A DNA stretch of 53,654 nt, counting the filler, from Jimgerdemannia flammicorona (taxonomy: Eukaryota), in the NCBI GenBank assembly GCA_003990765.1. It is 3 parts of 3 records of this genome, joined end to end, with 100 filler letters (N's around TTAATTAATTAA, not from the genome) between each part and the next. Parts side by side here need not be neighbours in the genome. Positions count along the whole stretch, not along the records: positions 1 to 17,824 come from RBNJ01002395.1; 2 more parts are not named here. One strand, 5' to 3'. The notes beneath the pieces were generated by a model. It was given only the letters and a program-made list of their open reading frames with translations. It searched no databases and was not told where the DNA came from. The position numbers and the translations under genes were made by a program. Within the stretch, counting starts at the first letter, position 1, and each line of letters starts with the position of its first letter. Shown here in pieces: positions 1 to 43,944 of the stretch.

Positions 1-256
1 CTCCCCCCACCCCTCTGCCTCAGTCCACCTCTCCCTCCTCCTCCAGCACCACCGCCCACCACAGATGGCCCCAGCATCCCCAAACCATCTCCTCGTTTCC
101 TCCCAACCTGCTGCCAGTCGAAGGCCCAGCTGCCCCCCTGGCCGACCTGCCCACCAGTATGCTCGTTGCTCGCCATGTTGATAGTAGCTTTTCACCAAAA
201 ACTTCGCAGAAAGTGCTGTCCAAATCTTGTGTCACCTGAATGTTACCGGTGAAAAG
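1..256 (-). mobile_element. 5' end of an L1/Tx1-like LINE (ORF1 ATG at 176, runs off the window start)
   Basis: Reverse complement (ttcaccggtaacattcaggtgacacaag...) aligns with the LINE 5' ends at 47900 and 7179. The open frame MASNEHTGGQVGQGGSWAFDWQQVGRKRGDGLGM...GGRGGLRQRGG matches ORF1 near 48046. Confidence 0.85.
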
Positions 257-270
257 GCTGATTTTTATGC

Positions 271-387
271 CCTGAATACCTTGTCAAATGGAAAGGATAT
301 CCAATCCATGATGCAACATGGGAACCCAAGACCAATCTCCAGAATGCCACTGACTTAGTTCAGGAATTTGATTCCTTGAACAACTGA
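271..387 (+). pseudogene. C-terminal half of the integrase chromodomain of Ty3/Gypsy family A (copy A1, 5'-truncated)
   Basis: PEYLVKWKGYPIHDATWEPKTNLQNATDLVQEFDSLNN*, nearly identical to the chromodomain ending at 41670. Confidence 0.9.
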
Positions 388-803
388 AATCTGAATACTC
401 TGATACCTATCAGTACACACTATATATTACCTTTCCGAACATTATAATTATCATGAACCAAATCAAGAACTCAGCAAAACAAGACAAGAATACCAACCCT
501 CTAGAAAAACAGCAAAACTGAAAGCCAGCCTATTCTCCCTATACCACTGGTGGGAAACAAGGCATAGACATTTAAGAAGATTCCTTAGAGGAAATTCTCC
601 AGCAGTGAATGACGTCAGAATCACTTCCAGTGCACGGCATTGAACATACGACCCTTTAATGTGTGAACCCAATGCGTTAGGCAACTGTACTATGAGCATG
701 CCACTTTCTGAAAAAAAATGGACTTTACCAGACTATTGACCTCCTAAATGGTATAACAAGACTAGAATAAAATTAGAAGGCTCTGATGAGGATGTCGAAA
801 GCT

Positions 804-816
804 AAGAAGGGGAGAG
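804..816 (+). promoter_or_regulatory. Polypurine tract of Gypsy copy A1
   Basis: aagaaggggagag sits immediately before the TGTAAG LTR start; same arrangement at 41869-41881. Confidence 0.85.
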
Positions 817-1105
817 TTGTAAGCGCACAACCTCCAAGCCACTGAAATCACACGTCACCCTCTGAACAAGCCACTGAAATCACATGCGACCTCCGAACAA
901 ATCTGGAAATCACCTACTTGATCATGAAGCTGAGTCAAACTGAAGTCACAGCGCACAAAGCTGAGTCAATATGAAGTCACAGAACACAAGATTTACACAA
1001 ATGGAATCTTACCAATCAGGACCAAATGCATATATACCAAGCACCGAGACGCATCGAATCAGAGAACCAAAACAAACAACAACTACAACTTCCAAACACA
1101 CAAAC

Positions 1106-2203
1106 ATGACCACTGAGATCTACAACTGTATCCACGCTGACATTTGGAATGCCATTGTCAACCGAGCCACACCCCCTCTGCCCCTCATGAATATCCATAG
1201 CCTAGCACCCCTCTACTTTGTGGAAGCCCGATGGAATGCCCTGAACATGCTTAACGAGGTCCACCAGATTGGACAAATCTCAAGCTATTACCAGATCGGC
1301 CGCCTCCTAGAAGACATGGTCGAGCACCACTATGACACAGATATTACTCAGATGTCGCAACATCAGAAGCTTATTGCGTGCAAACACAGAGAGCTCTTCT
1401 ATGAGTACAGCACCTTTATTCCCTGCCTCCGAGTTACTACCAGTGAGATGATTGCTACCCTGTCCTATGGCCAAATTGATAACATGATACAAGAACTCAA
1501 CCACAAGTACCTCGAGTACATCCAAACTACTGACAGAACTTTCTCACACCCCAATGATCACATCCTGCAAATGCCCCAAGTTGGATATGCCATAAAGGAC
1601 ATCTACGATATAATCCACTTCGATGAAGATGAAGCAGAAGACAATGACCCCTCTGATGCCGACATGACCTCAAGCCAAGGATCCTTGCCAACCCTGATCA
1701 CGCCACCAACATTGCCAATGAACTTACAACAGTTCATAACTGCATATGAGACTTATTGGGACAATGACCACTGGCACGAATACCAACCCGCATTCACCCC
1801 TGATTACTTCAATTACAATGAAGAGACTGGAGAACACAATCTGTACCTCCAGACAACCCTCGAAATTGAACCAACAACTCCACCACCCAAGTACGAGTGA
1901 TATGAACCACAGCCACCAACTTACTACAACCCCGCGACTCATAGTGCTGTAACCTATAGAAGGTATGCAGACAGCGAATCCGATGAAAGTGAAGACAATA
2001 CACCCATCCTTCGCCCACCAACACCTTATCCAGTATATGAAACAGACAATGCTATTCTGTGGGATGGAGATGAAGTTCTAATGTATTATTACCTCACCGA
2101 ACAAGGAGAAGTAATCCACGAACCACTTTTCCTAGATGACTACTTCATCAGAGATGATGCAATCGATGGTGATGTCATCGAAGACTATCCAGATAGTGCC
2201 TAA
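1106..2203 (+). pseudogene. LTR(U3)-encoded 365-aa acidic protein of unknown function; one internal TGA at 1898-1900
   Basis: ATG in acacaaacATG context. The frame is open to TAA 2203 except one TGA that is CAA in copy A2 (both derivable from CGA). Identical 1098-nt length in copy A2. Confidence 0.8.
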
Positions 2204-2266
2204 ATCTATAAATAGTCTAGCAGTCATAGTATAGATAGATTAGCCTTATACGACGTGACTGTGAAC

Positions 2267-2523
2267 TGACTCAGCAGTCAGACGATCTCTTGACATGTCA
2301 GATCACTATTGTACTACATGACTGCATTCCGACTCAGCAAAGCACTTAGTGCTACATCCATATCTAGCATAGTCCAGATAGTCCCTCACTAGTATAAATA
2401 CCCCCTCCCCCAGACCTCAGAATCTCAGACTTGAACAATCCGAACACAACTCCTGAGCACTTCCCCACAATATCCCTTCACACAACTACTCCTAGTATAG
2501 CAATATCATGAATAGCGAATAAA
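2267..2523 (+). promoter_or_regulatory. LTR promoter/polyadenylation region (TGACTCAGC motifs, TATA box, AATAAA)
   Basis: tgactcagc at 2267, cgactcagc at 2330, tataaata at 2393-2400, aataaa at 2518-2523; all conserved in copy A2. Confidence 0.65.
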
Positions 2524-2881
2524 CCTATTTAATAACCCACAAACCACTCTTAAGTAAATTCGCTCCCTGTTAGGTCCTACTCCTAACCCCATCACGAAAT
2601 TTCCTAATTGGGTATTGTCTGCAGCGATACACTAATTCAACTAAGCTAGTCTTAGTTTCTTGAACTTCCTGAAATACGGAAAATCCTGAACATCCAGAAC
2701 TAGTCCAAAAAAGGACTTTGGTTGAGACGTCAACCCAATCTTGAAATCAATAAGCATAGAGGATGTACTCCATACGAAATTGATCTTGACCATAAGAAAA
2801 CAGTCTTCCAGAATATCCAGAACTTCCAGAAAACCCTTCCAGAACTACATAACAGTTACCTTAAAAAGTAACCCTCTTACA

Positions 2882-5800
2882 CTTTCAGCCAAGCCAATAG
2901 AGACTCTAAGGACAAAATATAGAGCAGGGGGGAAAGAGGATCACTCTGAGGCACACTTCTTTCCAGGATAAACTCTAGATTACTCCACTCATTCATCAGC
3001 ACTGCTGCTCAGCAGCCTTGTACCAGGCCCATCAATCTTTGATCATTTACTGTACTGAACTCTACCTTCTGCAATACTACCTTCAAATAGTTCCACTGCA
3101 ACCTATCATAAGCCTTTCCTTGATCCAAAAAAACCATCTGCCTATCTACTTGCTAGCTTCTGCAGCCCTCCAAAATATTCTACACCTAGGCAGTACTGTC
3201 TCTAATCTACCTCCCCTTTATGAAGCCTCTCTGATCCTTGCCCACTAATTGGCCAACCCACTGCTATATTTTCCCAGCCAAAATTTTAGACACCAACTTT
3301 CTGTCCACATTCAGTAACATGATAGATCACCAGTTCCACCATATGCACTAATCTCTCTTCTCCTTATACAGCAGAGAGATCAACTCTAAGGAACTATTGC
3401 CAATCTAGCAGCCTTTTCTCAAAATGAAGTTTGTCATTTCTACTAGCCATCTACCAAACTTAACTCCAGAATTCCCAAGACAGTCCATCTTTCCCAGGTA
3501 ACAAATCAGCCTATACTCTCCTCAGTACCTTCAATACCTCTTCAAGGATCACTGTACCCATCACTGCCCCATCTATCTTAGGTACTGCTACCACTGGCCA
3601 ACTGCCAATCAAATTGTCATTGTTCTCCTATAAGACCCCTCTCCTCCCAAGCCCCCCTTCATCTTATCAGAGAGCTTGTTATTGTCTAGACACCTCTCTA
3701 AGTATATTCATAATGCCAGTAACCTCAATACTATCCTCTTGCAGTATCAAAGCCCAGCTATGTCATACTCTCCTAGCCTTCAGTATATCTAATAAATATT
3801 TGGTGGGCCACTCTTCTTCTTCCAACTATCTTTCCTGTAACCTTACCAACAGTCTATCTACCACTCTATCTTCAGCTATCTTTAGATCTAACTTCAACTT
3901 AGCTATCTTCATGGCCAACTAGGAGTACCTCTTTCCTGACAAGTTCTCTCTTCCAACAACCTCAACTACCATCACAGCTCTTGCTTGACTCTTCTACTTT
4001 ATCCTTCTGCTCTTTTCCAGCTACTTCTCCAACATTACACCAATAGACACCCACTAAATATTTAAATTTACCCTACTACCACTCTATTAGCTATTCACTA
4101 TTCTTCTACTATATCACTTCTTATCTTACAGTTGCCACAAATTATTCCTGCTCTACCTGTCTTCTGAGTAAAGCCACATTGAGTCACCAGTGACCTCTAC
4201 CCCTGCTAACTGCCTAAAACCTTCTACATATCTTTACTTTCTTGTGATCTGACCAAAGGCACCACCATACCTCTGCTAAGTCCAACATATTGCCCCAGTA
4301 TTCAGCTATCAAAATCCAATCAATTCTCATTCTAACCAGATCCTCACCCATAGGGTACCACCTAATGAAGGGTTCTGGCTTCTCTCTTTGATGTTGCTGG
4401 ACACCATCAACCAATCCCATATCTCTCTCAATCTGAAGCCAATATAAGAGCTCTGCTGAGACAGTCACTCCAACCCCACCATCAGACCTATCTAATGTCC
4501 TATTATATACTATATTAAAGTCTTTCCCCAGAATGTCCAGCCCAACCTCCTCTTGGTCTCTCTAAGCTAGCCAGCTCTCCACCTATTGGTTTTGCTCTCT
4601 GCCAACTACTGGAAGATAAACAGAGCCCATAACTAGTTCATCCCCAGCTCTTCCTTTCAATCTACTCCATATTAATTGATCACTATAAACTTCCACCTCT
4701 ACTAGCTCACCTCTCTCCATACCCACCAAAATGTCCACCTGCTCATTCCAACCTGCACTATCATGCTATTCCTTACTCTACTCCTCATAATTCTGCCTAC
4801 CATAGATATGAAAATTCTGAAGAAATATCACATCATGTCTCCTGATCTTTAGCTAATAAATAGATGCCATCACTTTACTCTATTTTATAGATTATTGACA
4901 TTTAGCAATAATATATATAGACTATTCATCATCATCAGTAAAAATGCTTAGAGTTCCACAGAGATTATCACTACCTTCTCAGTCTATCTATAGATTATTT
5001 CCTTTTACTCCTCACAGATAGCTCTCCAGATACAGACTCTATTTATACTACTGCAGAATATATCCACCCACTCAGATGCCACTTTTCTGATATCAGCCAT
5101 TTGGTCCTCATCTATATATCTCATATCTTTCATCATCTAGAAGTACTGTTACCATTGCTATTACCAACTTCAATCCCTATATAGTAATATTGAGAAATAT
5201 CTCCCAAGCCTCCTGAGACCTATTAAACATATCTACCTCCTTAATATCCTCCTCTATAAGTTCCTCAAGTACTGCCTGATACCAGCTGTCTGCTATCATT
5301 ACCAGAGGCCCAGGGGTGGCAGGCCTAGGAGTTCTACTCAACTCTTAAAGCATCTCTCTATCTGCTGAAATGTCAGAGGCCACATCTATCAGGTCATTCT
5401 CCTCAGTGACCTTCTCCAGCACACTATCTTGCCTGCCTCAGGATACTCTTAATGAATATTTGCTGCCTCTACTATATTGATGTCCTCCAACTGAGTTTCT
5501 GGTACTACTTCAGTGATATCCTCAAAACCTCCTCCTCCTTATTAGCCCACTTCCCTATCACTGGTATATGAGTTGAATCCTCTACACCATCTAGCTGTGA
5601 AAAGGATATCTCAGCTATCTCTACATCTTCCATCTGACTCTTGGCTATCTCTGCCCTCACTATCTTCTCTAATTTTGAATCTTGAAGGACTGTCTGCAGA
5701 TATTCTCAGTTCACTTTTTACCATCTCTTCCTCCTCCCATCTGTCAGAATCCAGATCCAGTCCTTAGTGAACTCCTCTCATCTCCTCTTTTACAATTCCT

Positions 5801-6886
5801 TTACTGCCTCTCTCTCCTCCAGAGTAAGTAACAATTCCTCCTCCTCTTACTCAGATCCCTTCCTCCTCTATACCTTATACTCTTGACCACTAATATAAAT
5901 CACTTCTGGCCAGTCTCTCCCTAGCCCCATAGCCTCCTTGCCCTCCAGTCATACCATAATCTCACAGTTGCTATTCCTTAGCTTAGTCCTCTCCCAGAAC
6001 ATAAATCTGAAATCCACTATCTCTCCAAAGCCCCCCAGTGCTTCTGCCATAATCCCCTTAGTCTCCTGTCTCTCCAGAGTTAGCAACTCTTCTACCACCA
6101 GACATATAGTATGTAGATCCCATCTCAGACATCTTGCCATTCCAATCTTGACATTCTTAATCATCAATCCTTTCTCCAGAGCCTTCACCATCTCTTCTTC
6201 CTCCACAAAGTCAATCTCTACTATCTCTACTGATAGAATAAACTTCAGAGACTCTGTACCAGCAACCTCCTCACCTACTAGCTGCAGAATCTCTCTGGCA
6301 GACATACTCAGCCCCAAGAAGTTTACTGAGATTACCCACATCAATACTAATTTGTGAAAGAAAGAGTGTACTATCAGTTTACTAGAGCCCACTACTATTG
6401 TCAACTTCTTCTTACTTTCTGAGACTCCAGCAGTTACTCCTCCAGCTCCTACAAGCCCACCAGTAGGTCTACCATCAGCCACTAGCTCAGCCTCAGGAAT
6501 ACTAGTCCCAGCCATCACACCACCAGATCCCTGCCCCCTGCCAGGCACCTGACCAGTCACCTGACCTATCACCTGACTCCTCTCTCTGTCAATACTATGT
6601 CCCCCCTGCTCTACCCTCATGGACCTAGCAGTAGCTCTCCTGCCCCATACCACAGTATACTAGCTTTCAATATCAGCAGGTCTCTCCTGATCACCTGTCT
6701 CACTAACAGTAGCACCAGCCCCCATCACCACCATAAAACTCTTGGAGAGGCCCAGACCAGGCCTCCTCCTTTCTAAGTACTCAGAGCTTAATGAATCTTA
6801 GGTTGTCATTAGACAAAAATTTGACAGAATTTGATAAAACTTATTATAAACTATAGCTAGACTCCTGCTGCACCTAGTACACCGGT
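2882..6886 (-). mobile_element. Decayed L1/Tx1-like LINE (ORF1, APE endonuclease, RT N-half), interrupted by the Gypsy A1 LTR
   Basis: ORF1 segment 5949-6653 is homologous to 48046-49359 (AREILQLV...LKFIL...MARCLRWD). ORF2 relics WSDH, GKDGLSWEFW, FLDQGKAYDRL and PQSDPLSPLLY end at the LTR terminus. Confidence 0.85.
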
Positions 6887-6899
6887 GTAGGCAAAGTAA

Positions 6900-7178
6900 A
6901 AACTTGAAAACATATTGCTTTTTATAAAAAGATACTTGTGTGGCTTAGCTTGGTTAGTTTGATTTGAGCAAAAGAAGTCTTGTCTGATCTATGTTACTCA
7001 ATATATAAATATATATTATCAGAAATAATAAACAATACTCCTTCTTCTCTCTACTCTATATTCTCAACTTATTTACAATAAAGGTTATAAGTTTCACTTA
7101 GCAGCTAATAAGAAATATTTTTTTAAGACTCTATACTATACTATGCTATAATGTCATAACTGATAAATTAAGAAGTCA
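6900..7178 (+). mobile_element. Probable Ty1/Copia 5' LTR end, primer-binding site and leader relic (boundaries approximate)
   Basis: aaggttataagttt at 7081-7094 resembles a decayed Copia-type PBS (aggttatgagccc). Once the LINE is removed via its TSD, this joins the Copia gag at 13202. Confidence 0.45.
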
Positions 7179-10100
7179 TTTTTCTCCAGTAACATTCAGA
7201 TTATCCAACCTTCTGACAATACTTACAATACAGTTTTTGAAGAAAAGATACTAGTATCATAGTGACTGATGAGTATCCTGAGATGTGTACTGGGCAGAGT
7301 GGTCTTAGTATATTTGACTAACAGTATGTAGGGAGGGGCCCCAGCTTGGGGGGAAGCATGCAGGGCCTGCTGGCAGGAGGATGTGGTAGGGGAGGGGATA
7401 GTGCTGGAGGTCAGGGGACAGAGAGAGTGAGCTTCATAGAGAAGGTGAAGGGGGATCAGCAGAGAGCTGGGCTGGAGAGTTGGCTGAGGAGAGATAAGGT
7501 AATAGTAAAGACTATAGAGCAGAGGCTTCAAGGGAGAGCCCCTCTGGGGGGCCAGAGTAGTGGGACTGGTGATGTAGTGGCTGAGAAGGTGACTACTGAT
7601 AGAAGCATGATAGGCAATCTGAAAAAAAATCTAAATGGAACTGCTGATGATAGACTAAGCTGTGGGAAGGGCATGAGGCCTAGTGACCTGGCTGATGATA
7701 TAATGGGACTGGTAGTGGCACCATTACTCAAGAAGTCAATCTCAGAATTTATAGTCACTCTGTACTTCAAAGGCTTAGTGGTGATGGCAAAAATGATCCT
7801 GGGGCTGATTGTGAAGCAGGTGGAAGGCACAGCATCTGTTAAGTTCCTGAAGGGCCTGGAGGTGGGCTTTGAGAAGGCAGGGCTACTGAAGGAGGTGCTG
7901 AAGACTGGGTTGATGGTTGGAGAGGTGTGTGTCTCAATAGCATAGTGCTTGAGATGAGATCCCAGAGTGGTGTAGCTCCTGGTGAAGGGAGTGCCTATGG
8001 TGACTGCTGTGGAGATGAGGAGGAGAGTTGAGAAGGTCATGGCAGAGTATGGAGAGGTAGTTGATATAGGGTTTAGGGTCTGGGAAGGAACCACCTTCCA
8101 GACAGAAGATGTTGATGTTCAGATTCAACTAGCAGAGAGGGAGACTACTGATAAGGTGTATGATTGACCTTTGGTGATGATGTGGGGAACCTTTGTATGC
8201 AAGGTGATGAGGGTAAAGGGGAGTGAGGAGGAGGAGAAGGACCTGTTAGAGGTACTGGAGGAGCTGAGTGGTGCAGTAGAGTGGAGGGTGAAGGCTTGGA
8301 AGATGTATATGAAGTCAATATACTTAGAGATTATTGATGAGAGGTGAGTCTATATTGACAAGGGGCTGTGAGAGAGGACCTAAGATTACAGGAGGCAGAG
8401 GGAGTTGCTGGCAAGTCTGGAGGTGAAGAAGACAAGGGCTACTAATGGCAGCAAGGATGCTGAGAGAGCTTTGGCAAGTGTCTGGGCTGGGAGGAAGAGG
8501 GAGAATATAGAGGTGGATCTGGAGGAGGCCAGGAAGGCACTGAGTGAGGACCTATATGAGAATGGTATATTCAAAGTCTGGGAGCAGTCTTCTACTCCTA
8601 CCTCTCTTATCAGGTAGGGACTGGCTACAAGGGGCTAAGTGGCAGAGGATGTGCCCATGCATAGTGCTCAGTGGATATACTTTGGGGTTCCTGAGGTAGT
8701 AAAAGGAGGACAAGTAGTGGCAGTTGGTGAGGAAGAACTGGTGAATATCCTGGAGGAGAGGTGAAATGAGACTGCAAGTATAGGAGAGAATATCTTAATA
8801 CTGAGTAGAGAATGGCCTGCAACCCCTGGGGAGAAGGAAGTGGGGAATATAAGGTGGATGTGCCAGATGATAAATAACCTTGTAGCTGAGAAACTGAGAG
8901 AAGTGGACCTGAGAGTGATGAGTGATGAGTATTAGACAAGGATCTTGTATGGTGATAGAGTGGTAGAGACATTAAGGGCAGAGGTACTAGCAGTCTTCCT
9001 GGAGGAGGAAGGGTATGAGGTAGACAAAGATAGAGAGGCTGAGCTAGCAGTTATTGCTAGTGAGCAAGCCACCTACTGCTGGGAAAAGCCTCATAGTTTA
9101 CAGCTCTGGTAGGAGGCCTGCCTGGAGTATCATAACGATTTTGAGGAAAAGGAAAATAGGGAAATGGCTGAGCTACTGGAGGGATTAGAGACTAAGAGAG
9201 CTGAAGAGAAGGAGGTGTCCACTAAATACAACCTAGACTTGGCAAGAAAGGTAAGAGATATAGAGCAGTAGAGGATGCATTTTCAATTTCACAATATTCC
9301 TTATGAATAGTATAACTAACATTTTTTCTCTCAATATGAATGGGTTATGGAGTTCAGTTTGGTGTCAGAATATTTTTACTTTGCTGAAAAGACTGGAGGC
9401 TGATCTCTTTCTTTTGCAGGATATCAGGTGTGAGGATGATTTGGATAGACTGGAGTAGACTAAAGAATAGAAAGAAGAGGCTATATGGAAAGACAAGATG
9501 GAGATTTTGATCTGGAGGAGTAGAGAAGAGTTACAAGAGGTGAGGAGCTGGGGAGACAGGCTGGTTTTGGGAGAGTGGATTTGAGTAGGTTGGGAGCCAG
9601 TTATAGTGGGGTCTTACTATTGTCCTGCTGTATGGGAGAGGCAGGTGGACTGGGTGAAGGGTCTTCAGGAGAGTAGGGCCCTCAAAGAGACTGGAGTGGT
9701 TATGCTTGGCAGGGACTTCAATATGTATGGTCTGGGATATATTGGTGGATAGAACTGATTGAGAGCAGGGGGCTAAGAGTAGGAGTAGAGGTCTGGAGAT
9801 ATAGGAGAAAGTGGAGAGACTGAGTGTGCTGGTGGATGCTGGCAGGGGATTTTGGGGTGATAGGAGGATATATACACACTGGGCCAGGGGTCTGGAGATG
9901 AGGATTGACTGAGTTTTGACCACAGACTGCTGGGGATTAGATAGCTGAAAATCACTGGAGGTTGAATGGTATTTGTAATCTGATCATTGGAGGTTGTTAA
10001 GATAGGGACATTTTGGGGGGAGTGGGGATGGGCCTGGACATTGGTGCCTGAATTTCTCTTTGTTAGATGATAAGGAGCTGTGGGATAAGTGGGCTGTAAA

Positions 10101-13100
10101 CATTCAGCAGAGGGTAGAGAGATGGGTACAGGAGGGGACCCCTATGGGTGTCAGGTAGATGTGGCTGAAGAAGGCTGCTAGGGTTTACTGGAGAGAGGCT
10201 GGCAAGATGACTGGCAGAGAGGAGGTAATGGGGGGCATGGGCTTCTACTAGGCTGGCTTGGCTTCTGGAGGATGAGGCTGAACTATTGGCCCTAGAGGGG
10301 AGGACTGGAGATTGTTGTGAGTATAGAAGGAGATTGAGGAGCTATAACTGATAGTAAGAGAGGAGGAGGAGGCATGGGTGCAGAGTCTGATAGCATAGTT
10401 ACATTGGCAGGGACTGGAGGAAGAGAAGAGGCTCTCTAAGTTTCTCATGAGGGTCCTTTGGGCAAAGAGAGTTCAGCAGAGGTAGGAGGGGGTATTGGAT
10501 GCTGATGGTCATCTGGTATATAGTATAAAAGATATTCTCAGATTGTTAAAAGAGAAGTAGAGTGGTCTGTGGAGTGAGGAGGAGGGAGGGGGGTATTGGA
10601 TGCTGATGGTCATCTGGTATATAGTATAAAAGATATTCTCAGATTGTTAAAAGAGAAGTAGAGTGGTCTGTGGAGTGAGGAGGAGGGAGGGGCTGATGAT
10701 GCTACCATTGACCATACTTTGGAGGATTGGCATCCACCACAGGTAGGAGGACTGGACAGTCTGGTGTTGCTGATGCAGGAGGAGAAGATTCACCAGGTTC
10801 TTGCTATAACTTTGCTGGATATGGCACCAGGAGAGGATGGCTTGCCCTGGGACTTTTGGAAGAAGATGGTGGGAATCCCCAGTATGCTAGAAGAATTAAT
10901 AGTAATGTGTGACTTGGTGCTATAGTCAGAGAGATGAGTGGGTGAGCAGAATCTGGGGCTGGTGGTACTGCTCTATAAGGATAAAGGCAGGAGAGAGGAC
11001 TGGAGGAACTAATAGCCAATTATGCTACTAGATATAGACAGAAAGCTGGTTACTAAGTTAGTGGTGGCAAAGTTATAGAAGGTGGCCCAGCAGGTATTGG
11101 GGGAGGAGTAGCAGGGCTTTGTGGGTGGCTGGCTCATTAGGGATGGCATGGCTTGAGTACATGGTATTATTGAGGGGGATGAGCCTGTGGACTGGATGGG
11201 TGCCTGGGTTTTCTGGATTAAGAGAAGATATATGACTGTGTCTAGTGGGTCTGGTTGGCAAAGGTACTGGATAGGATTGGTATCTCTCAGCAGTTCTGAG
11301 TGGTAATAATCAGTCTACTGGAAGAGAGTCAAGTGGTGCTTATATGCAATGGGGGCTTTTTCTCTAGCTAGAGGGGTCCCCCAAGGGGACCTGCTGTCCT
11401 CTATTTTGTATATACTCTTATTGGAGCCATTGATAGATAGGATTTGGTAGAAGATAGTAGGGCTCTCAGTATTGAGCATTAGATGAAAGATTGGAGCTTT
11501 TGCAGATGATATAGTGGTTGGTCTAAGATCAATCACTGATGTGGAAGAACTCAAGGTATCAGTGGAGTAGTATGAGGTACATTCTGGGACTAAACTCAAC
11601 TGGCACAAATGTGAGACAATAGTGTTAGATAATGGTCTAGTGAGAGGAGATGTCATTGGAACAATTGTCCCTGCTAGGGAGGTGATGTGATATCTAGATA
11701 TTTATCTTATAGTTTATGGATCCATCTTATCTAAGGCTTGGTAGAAGCAGTGAGTTGCAATCTGGGGGGAGGTCCTATAGAGTTGGGGTGGCTGCCAGTT
11801 GTTTCTAGCTGGGCATATTTCTATTTCGAATGTCTACTGGCTACTGAAGCTATGGTATTTGGCTTATCATCTGGACTTCCTAGCCTGGGTGGTGAAGTGA
11901 TTGTTGAAACAGACCAAGAGTTGGATCTGGACTAGGAAGAGGAGCCAGATTAGCTGGGAAATCTTGTCTCTGCCAGTCACTAAAGGAGGTCTGGGACTGG
12001 TTGACTTTCTGAAGAGACTGTACTATCTGAGAGCATGGTAACTGAGGAGGGCAGTGGAGCTGAGAGATAGTAGCTGGGTTTCCCTGATGAAGAGGGTCTG
12101 GGAGATGAGGTCCTCACTAAGAGGCTCTACAGATAATCTACTGTCTTTGGTTAGGCTTCAGAATATTGGTCACATGTAATATAAGGAATTCTGGTGGGGA
12201 GTTGTAGATAGAGTACACCATATTGGAATTTGCTAGTAGGGAGATGAAGGGGAAATACCTTGGGGCCCTGTGATGTTGAGATGGAACTGTATACTGTTGG
12301 GGAGTATCTTGTTACTTAATTTTGATATTAGTGATGGGGTAGAGTATCAGAGAGAGTTAGAATAGGATTTGTGGCCTGGTAGATGGTAGCAGGTGGATAT
12401 CAGGGAGGAGTGGGACTGGAATAGAGTTTGGGCCTAGAGTGCTGAGATTAGATAATAGATACCATCAAAGTACTGGGTGGTCTAGTGATACATGTTGTGG
12501 AGGAATATCATGCTCAACTTTTGCTCAGGCCATCTAGTTGAGGGGGGAAGTTTTAACTATGAGGAGTGCTATAATGTAGAGCAGGAAGGAGGTTTTATAC
12601 AGACGCCTGAATATTGACTGAGAGTGTGTGAGATACTTGGTAACTTCTGGTTGATGGTTGGGTATTGATTGAATGTAGTGCATAAGAGGTGATATGAGAG
12701 GCAGATGGGAGGATTTGCAGAATAGATTGGTAGAGGGGATTGGGTTGGAGTAGCTTACTTTAGGTTGGGTTATAGCTGTATAGGTAGAGTTGGTAGATTA
12801 CTAGTTGTTTATTTTTGAGAATGAGAGGAGACTAGGATTGAGGACATGGTTACTGAGATGAGAAGGACTGATGGAGGACATCTTGATGGGCTAGTGGCTT
12901 GGTTGAAGTCTGCAGGGTGGTTGACAGTATAGTTTGGTTCAGAAAATCTATAGATAGAGTGGGGGAAGAGTTGAGTTAGTGGGTAAAAGGATATCTTTCA
13001 AGTGTGAAGAGATGAGAGGAGCCCCTCTAGGGAGATTGGGTAGTGTGAGGTGATACTGTAACTATATCTATAGACTGGTAATAAATGGCAAAGTTCAAGT

Positions 13101-13147
13101 GATTATAAAAATAAAATAAAATAAAATAAAATAAAATAAAATAAAAT
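7179..13147 (+). mobile_element. Full-length decayed L1/Tx1-like LINE with target-site duplication
   Basis: ORF1 relic from about 7260; ORF2 relics FSLNMNGL, AGDFN, APGEDGLPWDFW, GVPQGDLLS, AFADD, YL. AATAAA and (TAAAA)n tail. TSD ataaat[t/c]aagaagtca at 7163-7178 and 13146-13161. Confidence 0.92.
10486..10692 (+). repeat. Exact 101-bp tandem duplication inside the LINE
   Basis: tattggatgctgatggtcatc...gaggaggagggagggg begins at both 10493 and 10594. Confidence 0.9.
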
Positions 13148-13150
13148 AAA
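13106..13150 (+). repeat. (TAAAA)n LINE tail
   Basis: Direct pentamer repeat at the 3' end of the LINE. Confidence 0.9.
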
Positions 13151-13879
13151 TCAAGAAGTCAGTATAAGTACACAGCTATAGTAGGCATAGGTACTCTCAA
13201 AATGAGTATAATAGTTATAGTTTCTGCAACTAGTATAAATATAGTCAAAAGATTAATCTCAATCTTTAATAGTAAGAATTATACTATTTGGATTTTTTAT
13301 ATAAGCAATCTCTTAAAAAAATATGACTTAGCAGAATATATAAAACTGCAAGTACAGATTCAAGATTATAATATTATAAATAATTACTGAGTATTATAAG
13401 AGATTATGTTTATATTATCAAACTAATAAACAAAGCTTATAATGTAACTATAATAGCCTACAATATATGAGAGACTCTATATAATCATTATATATAAGTA
13501 TCTTTGTTAAATTAATTCTATCTAGAATCTCAGTTATTCAATTTATAAATAAAATCCAAGAAGAGTATCTTTATATACTGATCATATCAATAATCTGATG
13601 AATCAGGTAAATTTTTTAAGTATATCAGTAGAGTATATTAGTAATGAAGACTCTTATATAAGGTCATTCTAAGATATATAACATTGTAATGATAGTCATA
13701 TAGGAGAGCAAGAAACTCACAAATTATATCTATTATAATAATATCTTCAAAATAAGTTACATCAGAATTCAGAAGACTGTCTTGATTTTGCAAGTAACTA
13801 GTTAAAAATTATATGTAACTCAACTATGATTCATCTTAATTATAAGATAATCTACATCTAAACTCATAATGACTTACAA

Positions 13880-15575
13880 TAACTCTAGCAATATACTACT
13901 ACTAGTCAGGTGACCCTACTCTCTGGACTAAAGAAGGAGATCTTCAAGATATAAAAGAAGTATTAAGAGAAGAAGTACAAAGTATCAACTATAAAAGACT
14001 TACTATAAAACAAAATGCCTACTATCTATCAAACAGTCAGATCAAGGAGTCACCCAGATCCATTAGTTCAAGAATAAATATTTGCTAATATCAAGAGAGC
14101 AATGAGACTGTATATAAGAAGGACCCCTAGTCTGAACCTCTATATAAGAGACCCCTCTCAACCACTGAGAAATGGAGATAAAAATCACTACTACTGCTGA
14201 GTATCTTTGGATATAGTAAAAATATCAGCTGGAATATTATCTCTGCTAAGAGTTCATACAAACTAGCTCTTACGAAATTGTGGACACTACAGGCATAGAT
14301 AGATATAAACAGAAACTAGCCAAAAGAGTCCACCAGATCTTCAGATATGTACTCTAGACTATTCCCAATCTAGAATATATCAAAGTCTCTGATATTTAAG
14401 AATTAACAAACTACTATATAGACTACCTTGAGGAAATGGTTGTAGAAGAGACCTAATCTACTATTATAGTCAAAAGTGATAAGGTTTAAGATCTTTAGAA
14501 CTCTATTCTAAAGGACAATCTAGACCAATTTATTTATAATCTGATTATATTATTTCAAGGCCCTTCCTTAAGAGTCTGCTATCTTCAGAATTCTATAGAT
14601 ATTCTCTACTTTGAGGATGACTTCACCATTGACTGGAGACCTTAAGAGCAGGATGATCTTATATCCTTTAATAATATCACCCCCTCAAACAACTTAGAGA
14701 ATAATGATAACCCACTTATTTTATTAGAAGATAATGTCAACAACTTTTTTTTCTCACTCCCAGATCTCCCTACTAACTTCAGTACAACTGTAGGAGATAC
14801 AAAAAATGATTTGGCCAGACTTTCTGAAGAAATGAGAAGGAGGATGAAGATGACATAATTCCAGTCATATTAAATTTTAAGATATATGAGGATAGTACTA
14901 TTAGCTAAATTAAGTAAGTTAGTTAGTTGTATAATAGTGACTTCATATTAACTAGTCAAATTCATCATAAATATAAAATTAGCCTTATCTAGTTAGTCAT
15001 CTGAATTTCAAAAATATACTAAATAGTATCTTCTAGTAATTGTGAGTTATAACTAATTACCTAGTCTTATTCTTAGTCTGAAAGTTATATAAATACCCTC
15101 TGATCTATAGTAAAAAAATCTTAGTCAGTTGAAGTTTGGAATAAAAAGAAAGTTTTATAAAGAAACATACTACCTCTAAGAGACTGAAATATTCTAAGAA
15201 ACAAGATAACTAGAGAAATAATCACTTGAGGTTTGAGTTTGAAGAATTTACTCTTACTGCTCTCAGAAAATCACTATTATGGAAAATTACCTCAGAAATC
15301 AGATATAAAACCCCAGAACTCAAGATACAAGTCAGTTAATACTATCTTGAAAAACTGTATAAAATTCAAGATATAAGTCAGTTAATACTGCTATCAGAAA
15401 ACTATATAAAATTCAAAGTTAGTTAATACCACTATCTCAGAATTTATAAATCAAGAACTGTTGGAAACTTCAGAACAATCCAAGGATATAAGATCTAGGA
15501 AACTTAGTCAAGAATATACTTGATTACCAAGCAATATAGAGAACTCACAAAATGATTACCAGGAAATATCACAAT
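13880..15575 (+). repeat. Putative solo LTR of a distant relative of family A (boundaries approximate)
   Basis: Decayed ORF followed about 180 bp later by tataaataccc (15088), aataaa near 15140 and short tandem repeats, the same layout as LTR 818-2881. No TSD identified. Confidence 0.5.
14015..14908 (+). pseudogene. Degraded distant homolog of the LTR-encoded acidic protein
   Basis: VDTTGIDRYKQKLAKRVHQIFRYVL*TIPNLEYIKVSDI*ELTNYYIDYL aligns without gaps to TDITQMSQHQKLIACKHRELFYEYSTFIPCLRVTTSEMIATLSYGQIDNM; also DILYFEDD vs DIIHFDED; acidic tail. Confidence 0.6.
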
Positions 15576-15958
15576 AATATACAATATAAACAAGCTACTG
15601 ATCCATTCTGAATGACCAATCACATGACCAATAGTTTGAAATATACAAACTCTAATATGATGTAACTTCATTATAATACAAACTTTAGCAAATAAATCAA
15701 ATAATAGTTAAAGTAAACATTGAGCCAGAATATTATTAGTAAAGATATAAGTAGCATATAAATAACTAGTGGTATATTGAGCTATATATATCAGCAAAAT
15801 AATCTATACAAATCACACACCATATTTTAGAGACTCAATTGGGAAAGTTTTCTAAAGACTTAACAATTTGGCTCAAGAACTTAGCAGTCATCTACAGTGG
15901 AGAATTTAGGAGAAACTAGTCAACAGTAGTCTACTTTAAGAAGAGAGGTACATATATA

Positions 15959-16606
15959 CAAAGTGTCCCGCGCATGAGAAGGCTAATGTGAGATAAATAG
16001 TGTTCTATATAAAATGAATCTAATGTGGGACATGGGTTTGGCTCAAAGGAAGCATATGCTTCTGAAGGCCCACCAATCGCATTCATATGCTAAGAGGCTG
16101 GGCACATATTTATTGTTCCAAAGAGGGATGGGTGGGAGGGGTGCATGAAATCGATTGATACGAATTACTAATGATGATTGCTAGAGTATGTTGAGGGAAA
16201 TGTGTGGCCACTGCCTAACTCTTGGGCATGCAGTTAGAGCTTGAGCTAGCTAAGGTAGGGTGCAGAAAGCAATTGAAACTGACTAAGCTAAGATGGTGGA
16301 TTGCATGATTACATTGCATGAATGTTTAAGCGCATGGTAGGGTGCAGGAAGTGATTGAAACTGACTAATCTAAGATGGTAGTTGCATTGCGCGATGAATG
16401 TTAGATGCACAAGTGTTAAGTGCAATGGCCACTTTGCTGCATTTTGAACTATGTTCACAACTATATCAAAGTGTCCCATGCATGAGGAGGCTAACATGAG
16501 ATGAATAGTGTTCTATATAAAATGAATCTAATATGGGACATGGGTTTGGCTCAAAGGAAGCATATGCTTCCGAAGGCCCACCAATCACATTCATATGCGA
16601 AGAGGC
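15959..16606. repeat. 140-bp direct repeat pair (15959-16098, 16467-16606) with an ~80-bp tandem duplication in the spacer
   Basis: caaagtgtccc...cattcatatgc(t/g)aagaggc occurs twice; ggtagggtgcag...gaaactgactaa occurs twice in the spacer. Confidence 0.9.
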
Positions 16607-16641
16607 AAAAGAACCACGGGCCTGGGAAGTGGGCAAGGCTC

Positions 16642-17405
16642 CTAAATGTAATACTGGTGCCGCTGACCACTTGTGGGCACCTTTTGGCCACCACCCGCCA
16701 AACCCATGGCCTGCTGGTAGTCGAGTAGAGGAAGTGTGGTCAAGGTGACTGTCGTCCGAGATAGAATCTGGTTGAGTTGCCAGATGTAATGCAGAAAGGC
16801 CGTAGACTTCCACCAATCAGCCAGTTGAATGATGTGATCCGGATATCCTGCCGATGTAAGAAGAGTAGCACTGCCGATACGGAAGGAATGAACATGAATT
16901 CCAGAGGCTAGTGGAGTGTCTCTTAAAGGGGCCCAAATGGCCTCGATGAATGTTGAGCAAGAGAGGGGTTGAGTGGGACTGAAGGAGAAGATGGGGTCCT
17001 TGGGACGGGTAGGGCAGAGGCGGATCATATTGTCAATTACAGAACAGAGACAATTGAAGGCACCTGAAAACCCCAGAAATACATCACCTGAGGTACCAGT
17101 TTTGGTGCAAGGGAGGTGTAGAGACCAAAAGGGCTGGGAAAGTATAGGGTCCCAGTGCCATCGAAGGTGGCGCCTGCATGTCTGCCAGTGTGAGTCGAAA
17201 GGTAGATGGTCAGGAGATATCAGCTCGCTAATTTGCATGAGGCCATAAAAGGCTGTATACATGGCCGCCCATATGGTGGCACATGAGGTGTAGTAAGGGG
17301 GAGAGCAGCATGAATAAGCTGCAAGTATTGGCAAGTAATAGGAAGGCGTTCCAGTGAGTGTGAGGGGGGTGGGTGGTGCTGAATGGATTTCAATACCATG
17401 TCGAA
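16642..17405 (-). pseudogene. Tyrosine recombinase (DIRS/Ngaro type), decayed
   Basis: Motifs TAFYGLMQISEL (R->Q), LPCTKT, HSFRIGSAT, WWKSTAFLHYI (from GRWxSxAxxxYI). Confidence 0.88.
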
Positions 17406-17410
17406 CAGGG

Positions 17411-17824
17411 GTAAGGATGCCTCCTTTCTCCGCTACCTTACCGGTCACAAGGTTTGGTAGGCGACCTTCCGAGTCCCCTTTCCCCTATTATTACCCCCTC
17501 TACCTCGGGTTGGTTTGCTGTACCTGCAGGGGCATGGTGGGAGGAGGGCAATGGTGATGAGTTGCCCCTTTATCGGTGTCGGATCGGTGCTTCCTCCACT
17601 TTTTCGCGGATTCTGGTGCCTTCAGCTGCGTCTGGGGTGTACCCGTTTTGGTGCGGCGCCTTCTTCCTTTTGCTGTCGCCAACAAGGTGTTGTCTCAGTG
17701 TGTCTCGGGCTACATAGGGAGTCGGCCGACCTTGGGCGTCAAGTGCTCAGTGTAGGTTACCTGCAGGTCCTCGGTGCCTGTGGTGGGGCCCTCTGGCTTT
17801 GGCGAGCTTCCCGGTGAGCGCGGT
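17411..17824 (+). mobile_element. Possible 5' end of a younger CpG-rich LINE inserted into the YR gene
   Basis: Abrupt switch to CpG-rich sequence; taccggtcacaaggtttgg resembles the LINE 5' motif; weak ORF1-like translation (AVANKVLSQCVSGYIGSRP). Confidence 0.3.
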
Positions 17825-20326: not shown

Positions 20327-21499
20327 CACGTGAATCAGACACTAGCATTCGCATCCAATGTTTCTTTCACATCACGACGGGTTATATCTGTACAGCGCGA
20401 GTACGAATAAATCGGTATTTTGATTTACATATGAACGTGTGACGTAAGTAGGATTTGAGGTTTTTTTTTTCTTTTTCTTTTTTTGTCTTTTGGGGGAGAG
20501 GGAGAGGAGGGTGGCGAATGGGGAAAGTTGGGAACGTGCGATTTGGTGTATTTGAGGGAGGCGTCGGCGTGGCAATGGAATTTAGAGAGGGTGATGTGTG
20601 TGGTGTGGGCCTGATATATAATTATGTATTTGACGACTCGTTTATCAGCATTATGTATGAATAGTGTTATGTGGTATAAGCTGAGTTGGATGGAATATAA
20701 ACCATGTGTCACATTTCACCCATTACCTCACATGACTAAACACGGGAACCCCGAGCCCTCCGCGCCGCGTTAGTGTAAACATTACGGTTCAGAACTTTTT
20801 TTTTTGTCTTTTTTCATTCGCTTCCAAGTCGTCTGTCGTCTGTCGTCTGTGTCGTCCACGTTGTGGATTTGGGATTCCCTTCTACCGGGAGGGAGGAGAA
20901 GAATTTATTGGTATTATCCTACGTTAGCCTCTCGTTCGCTCACAAATCTAAATCGCTTTTCCGTGGGTCGGTCACACATGTGAGTGGCGTGGCTTTTCAA
21001 GATGTAATGCTCCATCAATGAGCGAGATCCGTTGGCAACACGGACTCTTGATCTTGCGCTTTTCTACAGACACACGCAATACCCCACATCCCCTTTCTAC
21101 AATTCTTTCCGGGACGAGCAAGCAAACCCCTTGACAAAATTGGCCGAAAAATTTGTTTCTGTGACTGGTGTGCCCCACTTTCGATCGCAAACCACCATCG
21201 CAAATGCACACAAATCCAGCGCGGCGTGAGTATATACTCGAGGTTTGGGGTACTCGAGGTTTGGGGTACTTACAGATAGGCCTTTTTTCAAAAGGCTGTC
21301 AATCATGTAAACCGTGTCCAAGCACGGGGATTCCAAAGGTGGAAGAGCACTTTATGGGGAACAATCGCATCGATGAAAGAGGTAATGATAAATGAATATT
21401 CCTTTGTGCGAGTGCAAAATAATATACAATGGAATATCAGTGCAATGAAACAAATAAATAAAATTGAAAATGTCCGATAAAGAAGGACAGACTCCCTCT

Positions 21500-22558
21500 C
21501 TAAGTCCAGCTTTTGGGATTATCGCTTCTCCGCCACGGTTTGCGGATGAAGAGGAAAATGGCGACACCGATGAACAACACTGCAATGATAATACCGATGA
21601 TACCGCCAATGCCCCCAACAACGGCCAGTGGGTTGGTTGAAGTCAGTGGGTCAAAAGTAGTTGCCCATCGGAACGGGGTTGTCCTAGTGTCCAAGATGAC
21701 AACATCGTTCAGGTACGAGCCTGAGCTGTTTTCTGATGTGTGGATTCCTATTATCGACGAATCGAGTAGAAAAACCCCGTGTTAAAGTACTGGAACGAAC
21801 TGTCTGCACACTGACAGATTAAATTAAGGCATGTACAATATAATAAATCGAAGAAATGAGGCAAAAATCGTGCATACCAAAGAATAGAATCATCTGCCCA
21901 TTGACCATGACTGCCGAAGCCCCAACTCTTTCTGGTGGCACAGTGCCGTCAATGGCCGGCTGCGTCCACGACCAAGTCTGAGTGTTGAGCACAAAAACAT
22001 CGGAGGCGTTACCGCAGATGATGATGGAGATGCCGTCTGTGCCTGTAAGTGAGAAATATCATATCAGTCAGCTACCAAAGGCATTGTACAACACAAATGT
22101 TAACTCTCGAGCGGCCCGCCAATGCTTTTGCCAATCATCCGGCCGGATCGTGGTTATTCCGGTTCGTAGTTGGCGACATTGCTGGGATGGTAGTGGTCTG
22201 AAAGGCGTGGGCGTTAACAATGCTGTTTCGCTGAGATTCTCGACTGGTCGGGAACAAGGACGGGGTGAATCAGGCCCAAAACAGTATTGGAGGAGTTGGT
22301 GGAGGCGACCGGGCGGGAATTGTTGTCGGAGATGTCGTGGAGTTTGGCCGCGACCGGGGAATGAGTGAAATAAAGTCACCTACCCAACTCAGCATTGTGT
22401 GATTGTAGTGGACCAGGCGTGTAAGATCCCGCCGCGTTTTGAGAACTCCATACAGCAGAATTTGTACTTTGTATAAAAGTTTAAATAATTAAATTTCTGT
22501 CTAGGAGAAAGAAAAAAAGAAAAGGAAAAACGGAAACAGAAAAAGAAAGAGAAAGAGA

Positions 22559-25170: not shown

Positions 25171-25404
25171 AAAATCGAGCTTATACTTACAAATAGGCCT
25201 TTTTCCAAAAGGCCGTCAATCATGTGTCCAAGCACAGGGAATATTTAGTGAGCCGATTCCAAAGGTGCGAGGGCACTTTATGGGGAACAATGGGAGAGGT
25301 AAGGATAAATGAATATTCCTTTATGCATGTGCAAAATATACAATGGAAGATCAGTAATAATTAAATAAATAAATAATAGTGAAAATGTCCGACAGACTCC
25401 CACT

Positions 25405-25893
25405 CTAAGTCCAGCTTTTGGGGTTATCGCGTCTCCGCCACGGTTTGCGGATAAAGAGGAAAATGGCGACACCGATGAACAACACTGCAATGATAATACC
25501 GATGATACCGCCAATGCCCCCAACAACGGCCGGTGGGTTGGTTGAAGTCAGTGGGTCAAAAGTAGTTGCCCATCGGAACGGAGTTGTCCTAGTGTCTAAA
25601 ACAACAACATCGTTCAGGAGCGAGCCTGAGCTATTTTCTGATATGTATCTTCCTATTAGCGGCAAATCGAGCAGACAGATTAAATTAAGGCATGTCCAAT
25701 ATAATAAATCGACGAATAAATGAGGCAAATATCGTGCGTATATACCAAAGGATAGAATCATCTGCCCATTGGCCATGACCGCCGAAGCCCCAACTCTTCC
25801 TGCTGAGACAGTGCCGTCAATGGCCGGCTGCGTCCACGACCAAGTCTGAGTGTTGAGTACAAAAACGTCAGAGGCAACTTTTTGCCCGCTACC
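25405..25893 (-). pseudogene. 3' part of a tandem paralog of the kelch-TM gene, fused to Gypsy B
   Basis: Near-identical last exons (DVFVLNTQTWSWTQP; LDTRTTPFRWATTFDP...RKPWRR). The 3' flank from 25184 also duplicates the region from 21268. Confidence 0.85.
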
Positions 25894-41882: not shown

Positions 41883-43944
41883 TGTAAGCACACAACCTCC
41901 AAGCCACCGAAATTACACATCACCCTCTGAACAAGCCACTGAAATTACACACGACCTCTGAACAAATCTGGAAATCACCTGCTTGATCATGAAGCTGAGT
42001 CAAACTGAAGTCACAGTACACAAAGCTGAGTCAATACGAAGTCACAGAACACAAGATTTACACAAACGGAATCTTACCAATCAGGATCAAATATATATAT
42101 ACTGAGCACTGAGATGCATCGAATCAGAGAACCAAAACAAACAACAACTATAACTTCCAAACACACAAACATGACCACCGAGATCTATACCCATATCTGT
42201 GCTGATATTTGGAATGCCATTATCAACTGAGCTATACCCTCTCTGCCCCTCATGAATATCTATAGCCTAGCACCCCTCTACTTTGTGGAAGCCCGATGGA
42301 ATGCTCTGAACATGCTTAGCGAGGCCCACCAAATTGGACAAATCTCAAGCTACTACCAGATCAGCTGCCTCCTGGAAGATATGATCAAATACTACCACAA
42401 TACAGACATTATCCAGATGTCTCAACACCAGAAGCTCATCGCCCACAAACATCAAGAACTCTTCAATGAGTATAGCACTGTTATTCCCCACCTCCGAGTT
42501 ACCACAGCCGAAATGGTTGCTACCCTATCCTACAGCCAAATCAATGACATGATACAAGAACTCAACCACAAGTACCTCGAGTATGTCAAAACTACAGACA
42601 GAACCTTCCCACACCCCAATGATCACATCCTGCAAATGCCCCAAGTTGAATACACCATGAAGGATATCTATGATATAATCCACTTCAATGAAGACAAAGC
42701 AGAAGACAATGATCCCTCTGATGCTGACATGACCTCTAGCCAAGGATCTCTGCCAACCCTGATCATACTGCCAACCTTGCCGATAAACTTACAATAATTC
42801 ATAACAGCATATGAGACTTATTGGGACAATGACCACTGGTACAAATATCAATCCACCTTCACCCCCGATTACTTCAACTACAATGAAGAGACTGGAGAAC
42901 ACAATCTGTACCTCCAGACAACCCTCGAGATTGAACCAACCACTCCACCACCTGAGTATGAGCAACATGAACCACAGCCACCAACTTACTACAACCCTGT
43001 GACTCATAGTGCTGTAACCTACAGAAGATATGCAGACAGTGAATCCAATGAAAGTGAAGATGATGCACCCCTCCTTCACCCACCAATACCTTACCTAGTA
43101 TATGAGACTGATGATGCCATCTTGTGGGATGGAGATGAAGTTTCAATATATTATTACCTCAGTGAACAAGGAGAAGTAATCTGTGAACTACTCTTCCTAG
43201 ATGACTACTTTATCAGAGATAATGCAATTGATGGTGATGTTATCGAGAACTACCCAGATAGTACCTAAACCTATAAATAGCCTAGCAGTCATAGTATAGT
43301 TAGATTAGCCTTGTATGACATGACTGTGAACTGACTCAGCAGTCAGACAATCTCTTGACATATCAGATCACACTTGTACTACATGACTGTATTCTGACTC
43401 AGCAAAGCACTTAGTGCTATATCCATATTCAGTATAGTCCAGATAGCCTCTCACTAGTATAAATACCCCCTTCCCCAGACCTCAGAATCTCAGACTCGAA
43501 CACAGAAGAACATTCCTGAACACTTCCCTACAAATATCCCTTTACACAACTACTCCTAGTATAGCAATATCATGAATAGCAAATAAACCTATTTAATAAC
43601 CCACAAACCACTCTTAAGTAAATCCACTCTCTGTTAGGTCTCACTCCTAACCCCATCATGAAATTTCCTAATTGGGTATTGTCTGCAGCAATACGCTGAT
43701 TCAACTAAGCTGGTCTTAGTTTCTTGAACTTCCTGAAATATGGAAAATCCTGAACATCTAGAACTAGTCCGAAAAAGGACTTTGGTTGAGACATCAATCT
43801 GATCTTGAAATCAATAAGCATAGAGGATGTACTCCATATGAAATTGATCTTGACCATAAGAAAACAGTCTTCCAGAATATCCAGAACTTCCAGAAAACCC
43901 TTCCAGACTACGTAATGGTTATCCTAAAAAGCAACCCTCTTACA
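41883..43944 (+). repeat. 3' LTR (2062 bp) of copy A2
   Basis: TGTAAG...CTTACA after a PPT; colinear with 818-2881. Confidence 0.92.
42171..43268 (+). pseudogene. LTR-encoded 365-aa acidic protein, copy A2 (stops at 42228 and 42795)
   Basis: Same length and frame as 1106-2203; its stops fall at codons that are sense (CGA, CAG) in copy A1. Confidence 0.8.

What the first reader, a model, noticed from the sequence alone, without database searches (positions are those of the whole stretch)
14015..15100. Distant homolog of the LTR protein in a second LTR-like insert: a protein family, not a one-off
Seen: manual translation gives an ungapped ~50-aa match to the family A LTR protein (D-x-T...[IL]A[RK][KR]xx[EQ][LI]F-x6-IPxL-x7-IxxL[ST]xxxID). 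A second block DI[IL]xF[DE][DE]D, an acidic tail, a similar start context (caaaATG) and a tataaataccc box about 180 bp after the stop also match. I see no obvious nucleotide similarity. It sits between the gag and protease relics of a Copia element, as a solo LTR would. Inference: protein-level conservation across diverged LTRs implies long-term selection on an undescribed LTR-encoded domain.
Basis: partly seen in the sequence, partly recalled or inferred. Interest (0 to 1): 0.75.

Follow-up and report, generated by a model that had tools for sequence, protein, structure and literature searches.

The report
Accessory gene inside fungal retrotransposon LTR
This is a decayed copy of an extra protein gene inside the terminal repeat of a jumping gene; the gene belongs to an unnamed family that several different jumping-gene lineages carry and have swapped, and it may act as a switch that turns the element on.

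Summary
14015-14917 is a decayed ORF (2 frameshifts, 12 premature stops) inside a 2091-bp LTR (13734-15824) of a dUTPase-bearing, non-chromodomain Ty3/Gypsy family (B). It is a 5' LTR with leader, not a solo LTR; it sits in a Copia gag, but no Copia protease follows. A profile of relatives holding no A sequence does recover A over ~125 nearly gap-free residues (0-1 of 2000 shuffles; hhalign 0 of 150). Five Gypsy families carry the gene: four inside the LTR, one just before the polypurine tract. It evolved under purifying selection, and its tree conflicts with the RT tree (AU p 0.0008 and 0.0125), so lineages exchanged it. No Pfam, PDB or fold match. A helical core, an acidic tail and an upstream TATA-like box in three of five families suggest a separately transcribed regulator of the element (inferred, ~0.4). 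The scan noted this family before on other DNA of this genome.

The parts
13734..15824 (+). Family B LTR, 2091 bp, a 5' LTR (TG...CA ends in other copies, decayed here)
   Evidence: Left end shared by 17 of 20 loci, 7 of them behind a polypurine tract; right end from 10 loci; two-LTR element at G000:C4131
13950..13957 (+). TATA-like box 65 nt upstream of the ORF start; candidate own promoter (inferred)
   Evidence: TATAWAWR 45-110 nt upstream in 27 of 31 B, 39 of 41 C, 17 of 17 E, 2 of 33 A, 0 of 17 D anchored hits; background 3-19% of windows
14015..14917 (+). Decayed accessory ORF, about 300 codons, in three frame pieces (14015-14155, 14157-14831, 14831-14917), 12 premature stops
   Evidence: tblastn with intact metagenome homolog P0011: 69%, 46%, 64% identity, E 3e-68
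14070..14445 (+). Conserved helical core (~125 aa) shared with family A
   Evidence: Profile positions 4-133 match A residues 52-179; helices in the model
14640..14917 (+). Acidic low-complexity tail ending in a P-x-x-L-N-F motif shared by B, C, E
   Evidence: tail of P0011 has 28 D+E and 3 K+R in 110 aa
15088..15096 (+). Main LTR TATA box; the ORF lies wholly upstream of it, in U3
   Evidence: followed by AATAAA in L099, C, D and E
15825..15951 (+). PBS-like site and start of the family B leader
   Evidence: Shared with 5' LTR copies L006, L009, L014, L019, L152 and with family D; priming tRNA not tested
13145..13733 (+). Copia-type gag relic into which B inserted
   Evidence: Other copies run on past the junction; Retrotran_gag_2 and Pol_BBD in those copies
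15959..17824 (-). Younger tyrosine-recombinase-type repeat that cuts off B; the contig ends at 17824
   Evidence: Copies 91-96% identical; weak Phage_integrase hit, E 0.012, under cut-off
818..2881 (+). Family A LTR with its ORF (likely 1106-2203, one internal stop at 1898); second copy 41883-43944
   Evidence: chromodomain and dUTPase in its element

Best explanation
SHOWN: a dead copy of an accessory gene in the U3 part of a Ty3/Gypsy LTR. The gene belongs to an unnamed family (helical ~125-aa core, acidic tail) carried by at least five dUTPase-bearing Gypsy families in this genome, of both chromodomain and non-chromodomain type. It was kept by purifying selection and exchanged between lineages. 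INFERRED: it works like the 3' regulatory genes of complex retroviruses. A TATA-like promoter just upstream gives a short mRNA that ends at the LTR poly(A) site; the core binds nucleic acid or chromatin and the acidic tail recruits host machinery, raising expression of the element. Moving the polypurine tract upstream of an internal gene (the family E layout) would put it into U3 and so into both LTRs. Odds: identity 0.95, homology to A 0.85, exchange 0.85, transcriptional-activator mechanism about 0.4.
For: Family: homologs P0001-P0011; in-genome families C, D, E. Homology to A: an A-free profile scores 9 of 9 A proteins at 10-17.4 bits, reached by 0-1 of 2000 shuffles, reversed controls below 0 bits; hhalign 33.2 against 14.4 +/- 2.5, 0 of 150 column shuffles. 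In 534 six-frame window tiles the hits are B (151 bits), the two A copies (14.1, 12.0), then 2.4. Selection, pN/pS in frame against three control frames: window copy vs L099 0.31 (0.74, 1.07, 0.74); A-A 0.21 (1.00, 1.13, 0.95); C-C 0.29 (0.88, 0.84, 0.72); E-E 0.33 (0.81, 1.11, 0.76). Exchange: B and D bodies are 70-74% identical in DNA but their ORFs 25-31% in protein; B-C ORFs 48-62% but RTs 30-36%; AU rejects B+C on RT (p 0.0008) and B+D on the ORF (p 0.0125). Chromovirus E shares 255-324 bp behind integrase with D and B at 74-76%. Upstream TATA-like box in B, C, E. Helical model, pLDDT 76.5. Acidic tails.
Against: No test of expression or function. The core is not net basic (P0011 N-part: 21 K+R, 30 D+E) and no known DNA-binding fold or family was matched. 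A and D lack the upstream TATAWAWR (2 of 33, 0 of 17); copies within a family are not independent, so this is 3 of 5 families. The A match is weak in absolute terms (hhalign probability 31%; not found in the 1.84-billion-protein search with a B/C profile). B-B pN/pS of 0.43 is barely below its controls (0.52, 0.70, 0.49). Codon pairing was protein-guided, which favours the true frame. AU groupings were named after I saw the identities, D has a long branch, and A+E as one ORF clade was not rejected (p 0.124).
Confidence: 0.45

Rival explanations
1. An anti-silencing or RNA-binding factor that protects element RNA or chromatin from host methylation or RNAi, rather than a promoter activator.
For: The genome decays these elements heavily by C>T/G>A change (114 of 201 differences to L099; CpG o/e 0.02 in the window LTR). 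Fast divergence and swapping between lineages fit an arms race.
Against: No match to a known suppressor family; no functional data.
Confidence: 0.25
2. A particle, trafficking or integration helper: the tail motifs D-L-I-x-F and P-x-x-L-N-F dock on host proteins (the likeness of the first to a clathrin box is recalled, not from a call).
For: D-L-I-x-F in 5 of 7 and P-x-x-L-N-F in 5 of 7 example proteins.
Against: A strict clathrin-box pattern fits 1 of 7; D has neither motif; intact B-type P0011 lacks the first. Acidic-hydrophobic motifs are also typical of activation domains (established knowledge).
Confidence: 0.15
3. A and the B/C/D/E proteins are unrelated, independently acquired LTR genes; the likeness is convergent helical patterning.
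For: Pairwise tests fail; identity 14-19%; hhalign probability 1-31%.
Against: A 123-column alignment with two small gaps; apart from pattern-fetched L100, the only hits of 5 bits or more outside B-E among 6648 tiles are family A (judged from the printed rows); same place and strand in the LTR.
Confidence: 0.12
4. The ORFs are unselected open frames kept by base composition.
For: B-B comparisons show little frame specificity.
Against: Frame-specific pN/pS in A, C, E and window vs L099; B-C DNA similarity is confined to the ORF; second codon positions carry half the B-C transversions of first and third (0.093 vs 0.187, 0.178).
Confidence: 0.03

Closest known systems
Additional ORFs (aORFs) of LTR retrotransposons: Grande, RIRE2, Retand, Boty, env-like (PMC7264820, main text read)
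   Same: A conserved extra gene of unknown function at the 3' end; some have their own promoter and nuclear products. Family E has this layout, in sense.
   Different: The review describes aORFs in the internal region. Here four of five families carry the gene wholly inside the LTR, so each LTR holds a copy. No sequence relationship was found.
MMTV sag/naf (PMC9412291, passages read)
   Same: An ORF in U3 of the LTR, expressed from a second promoter (P2) inside U3.
   Different: Vertebrate retrovirus with an immune function; no Pfam match of any family member to it. A likeness of position only.
Foamy virus Tas (PMC8670036, PMC4929722, PMC13220597; abstract openings in the search listing only)
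   Same: A 3' gene expressed from an internal promoter whose product activates the LTR: the model for the proposed mechanism.
   Different: No sequence or fold match; transactivation is untested here.
dUTPase-bearing fungal Ty3/Gypsy elements (PMC2864245, passages read)
   Same: dUTPase in varying positions; a figure legend lists an additional ORF of unknown function.
   Different: The passages seen mention no LTR-internal gene; I did not see the figure or supplements, so the site of that ORF is unknown to me.
LTR swapping and LTR subfamily variation (soybean LTR swapping, seen only as a reference title in PMC6894440; Podospora crapaud, PMC10787394 passages)
   Same: LTR parts exchanged or diversified on a shared body.
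   Different: Here the exchanged part carries a selected protein gene, and exchange spans chromodomain and non-chromodomain lineages.

Membership tests
Ty3/Gypsy LTR retrotransposon (family B) | Two direct LTRs around RT followed by integrase | tested here: met
   G000:C4131: LTR+ORF, dUTPase, RT, IN, LTR+ORF; rve hit upstream of a 3' LTR, E 4.5e-7, just under cut-off
Ty3/Gypsy LTR retrotransposon (family B) | Polypurine tract before the 3' LTR | tested here: met
   7 of 17 loci with the left end carry the same purine tract
Ty3/Gypsy LTR retrotransposon (family B) | PBS and target-site duplication | tested here: inconclusive
   Shared PBS-like site, tRNA not tested; ATAT on both sides at C4131 but in AT-rich DNA; not determinable for the window copy
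Chromovirus (family B) | Chromodomain at the integrase C-terminus | tested here: not met
   No hit with chromodomain queries behind B integrase; Chromo found for A and E
Solo LTR | LTR with host DNA on both sides and no internal sequence | tested here: not met
   127 bp of family leader follow the LTR
Insertion within a Copia element | Copia gag on one side | tested here: met
Insertion within a Copia element | Continuation (protease) on the other side | tested here: not met
   1.3 kb downstream of the empty site in one copy (L136) has no blastn or tblastn match right of the insert
Same protein family as the family A LTR ORF | Significant pairwise similarity | tested here: not met
Same protein family as the family A LTR ORF | Significant profile similarity with an A-free profile | tested here: met
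MMTV sag-like | ORF wholly inside U3 | tested here: met
   ORF between the LTR start and the main TATA
MMTV sag-like | Sequence relationship | tested here: not met
   No relevant Pfam hit for 35 members at E up to 1
Foamy Tas-like transactivator | Own promoter upstream of the gene | tested here: inconclusive
   TATA-like box in 3 of 5 families; no transcript data
Foamy Tas-like transactivator | Binds and activates the LTR promoter | not testable with these tools
   Needs reporter and binding assays
env-like aORF | Transmembrane segments | not tested
   No membrane prediction was run
DUF3102 / HTH-like phage proteins | Profile or fold match | tested here: inconclusive
   Atlas scores 0.90-0.93 with 136-157 of 256 shared features; Foldseek E 1.3; PF11300 found no candidate in G000

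The most novel reading that the evidence does not exclude
These fungal Ty3/Gypsy elements encode their own transcriptional regulator of an undescribed family as an exchangeable promoter-plus-gene module. Because it sits in U3, every LTR, including solo LTRs, keeps a complete expression unit, and lineages trade regulators across the chromovirus boundary. That would be complex-retrovirus-style autoregulation in a fungal retrotransposon.
Probability: 0.3. Interest if true: 0.8.

Novelty: new variant of a known kind. Interest (0 to 1): 0.58.

Why it matters
LTRs are treated as non-coding control regions, so annotation pipelines miss genes inside them. A selected protein family in the LTRs of several abundant Gypsy lineages, swapped independently of the enzymes, gives a testable case for the open question of what retrotransposon accessory ORFs do, and a natural series (internal in E, LTR-borne in A-D) for how a gene enters U3. 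The window copy itself is dead; its value is as one more member.

Tried and rejected
Pairwise A vs B and A vs C tests: not significant. Database search with A residues 45-260: none of 65 candidates scored. The 1.84-billion search with the B/C alignment: 5 hits, none family A. One search found A-type P0012, but the query held A rows, so it is circular and not counted. Pfam, PHROGs, PDB sequence: no credible hit. Fold searches: Foldseek PDB and BFVD nothing at E 0.001 or better, VIA best Z 5.0; this shows neither a new nor a different fold. Single-sequence fold of the A core: pLDDT 48.8, too low to use; the B model's alignment held 6 A rows among 35, so it is no independent test. Atlas hits are leads only. 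Viral contigs: 14 pattern hits, none confirmed. Metagenomes: 2 of 184 stretches; L100 is a 15-residue match, discarded. RNA: no RNA holder listed; no reads laid. In one search L099 was mis-binned among 34 B rows and dS was near saturation, so I quote. A recalled likeness to helical motifs in Glomeromycota retroelement proteins was not recovered by any search and is not used. Literature searches listed no paper whose title or abstract opening describes an LTR-internal ORF family in fungi; most were seen as listings only, subscription journals and repeat databases were not searchable, and supplements were not read.

Full report
1. Observation. In its best ungapped register it has 11 identities in 55 columns with the family A protein, raw score 26. 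Local alignment scores 44 and 48 against the two A copies, reached by 50 and 29 of 1000 shuffles, and tblastn with A does not find the locus. The pair alone is chance-level.

2. What the insert is. The window is a scaffold; 1-17824 is contig G000:C2395. A DNA search gave 1248 candidates, 40 scored, 20 loci kept. In 17 of the 20 the shared left end falls at 13734; 7 of these have the same purine tract in front, the other 10 varied AT-rich flanks. Ten loci define the right end at 15824. G000:C4131 holds a two-LTR element with dUTPase, RT and integrase, no chromodomain hit, and the ORF in both LTRs. So family B is a non-chromodomain Ty3/Gypsy element. The window copy runs on into the family leader (15825-15951), so it is a 5' LTR, cut off at 15959 by a younger repeat. 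On the left it interrupts a Copia gag. The Copia continuation, protease included, is not in the window right of the insert (one donor copy tested).

3. The ORF. An intact B-type gene of 323 aa in a metagenome contig (L099, P0011) maps onto 14015-14917 in three frame pieces with 12 premature stops. It lies between the LTR start and the main TATA box at 15088, in U3. None of the other 19 B loci has a long open frame here. Decay is mostly C>T and G>A.

4. The family. A less-decayed sister family C has ORFs of about 270-280 aa in both LTRs. Database searches gave six and five relatives; two of them led to in-genome families D and E. First-look candidates number 4,600-6,500 per protein query; these are not copy numbers. 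D carries the ORF in both LTRs. In E, a chromovirus, the gene ends directly before the purine tract: 5 of 11 LTR starts have gene and tract in front, 6 of 11 unrelated flanks. All five families carry dUTPase.

5. Homology to A. Profile-profile E-values improved as diversity rose: 0.044, 0.0014, 0.0005. A 17-sequence profile with no A member scores 9 of 9 A proteins at 10-17.4 bits over profile positions 4-133; 0-1 of 2000 shuffles reach these scores; hhalign gives 33.2 against 14.4 +/- 2.5 for 150 column shuffles. In a six-frame scan of 6648 tiles, family A is the only sequence outside B-E at 5 bits or more, apart from pattern-fetched L100; within the window the next best score is 2.4. The signal would not stand out in a global search, so it rests on this targeted test: about 0.85.

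6. Selection. pN/pS is 0.21-0.33 in the true frame for A-A (496 pairs), C-C (300), E-E (105) and window copy vs L099, against 0.72-1.13 in shifted and reverse frames. B-B (171 pairs) separates poorly: 0.43 against 0.49-0.70. Pairs share ancestry and codons were paired through protein alignment. B and C share DNA only inside the ORF (64% over 411 bp).

7. Exchange. B and D are 70-74% identical in DNA across gag-pol, RT 58-70%, yet their ORFs are 25-31% identical. B and C share 30-36% in RT but 48-62% in the ORF. A and E share 49-50% in RT and 14-17% in the ORF. AU tests reject B+C on the RT tree (8 rows, p 0.0008) and B+D on the ORF tree (12 rows, p 0.0125), but not A+E on the ORF tree (p 0.124). 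The groupings were chosen after seeing identities and the trees are unrooted, so no donor is named. E also shares the DNA behind integrase with B and D.

8. How it may work. Shown: a helical core (model pLDDT 76.5) with no match in PDB or BFVD; an acidic tail with short hydrophobic motifs; a TATA-like box 58-88 nt before the ATG in B, C and E but not A or D (hits include a few duplicate loci). Inferred: a gene at the 3' end of the genomic RNA needs its own message, and the upstream box with the LTR poly(A) signal would give one. Core plus acidic tail fits a regulator that raises element expression, as Tas does for foamy viruses (abstract openings). I give this about 0.4, anti-silencing 0.25, a particle or trafficking role 0.15.

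9. Against what is known. Extra ORFs are described between pol and the 3' LTR (PMC7264820). An ORF in U3 with its own U3 promoter is known from MMTV (PMC9412291). dUTPase-bearing fungal Gypsy elements are known (PMC2864245); passages of PMC3248453 showed nothing on LTR ORFs. It works like an aORF placed like sag, but it is a member of neither sag nor Tas by sequence. Searches listed no description of this family; that is limited evidence.

10. Verdict. New variant of a known kind; interest 0.58. The scan had already noted this family on other pieces of the genome.

Noticed in passing
window 15959-17824: Young repeat (copies 91-96% identical) with a tyrosine-recombinase-like ORF at 16642-17262 (-), inserted in the B leader; DIRS/Ngaro-like by recall.
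   Followed up: partly
window 6990-7140 and 13145-13733: Two parts of one Copia-type element separated by a 6-kb insert (about 7180-13130) that ends in a (TAAAA)n run and resembles 47900-53190; it looks LINE-like, not tested.
   Followed up: partly
L157 about 7990-8300; L151 and L155 behind integrase: Chromovirus E shares 255-324 bp behind integrase with non-chromodomain D and B at 74-76%; the stretch may hold a short reading frame.
   Followed up: partly
window 971-973: The longest-ORF ATG of family A is ATG in only 13 of 30 copies (ACG or ACA in the rest); the conserved start is at 1106.
   Followed up: yes
L155/L156 (family D) and window 15154-15257: D and B LTRs share their first and last bases and 111 bp behind the TATA box (77%) while U3 differs, which places the exchanged segment in U3.
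   Followed up: partly
window 37600-38600 and L076: dUTPase lies before the protease in A and E; in B, C and D it lies just before RT.
   Followed up: partly
window 21267-22007 and 25184-25875: An 80%-identical 750-bp duplication within kelch-like host gene sequence.
   Followed up: no
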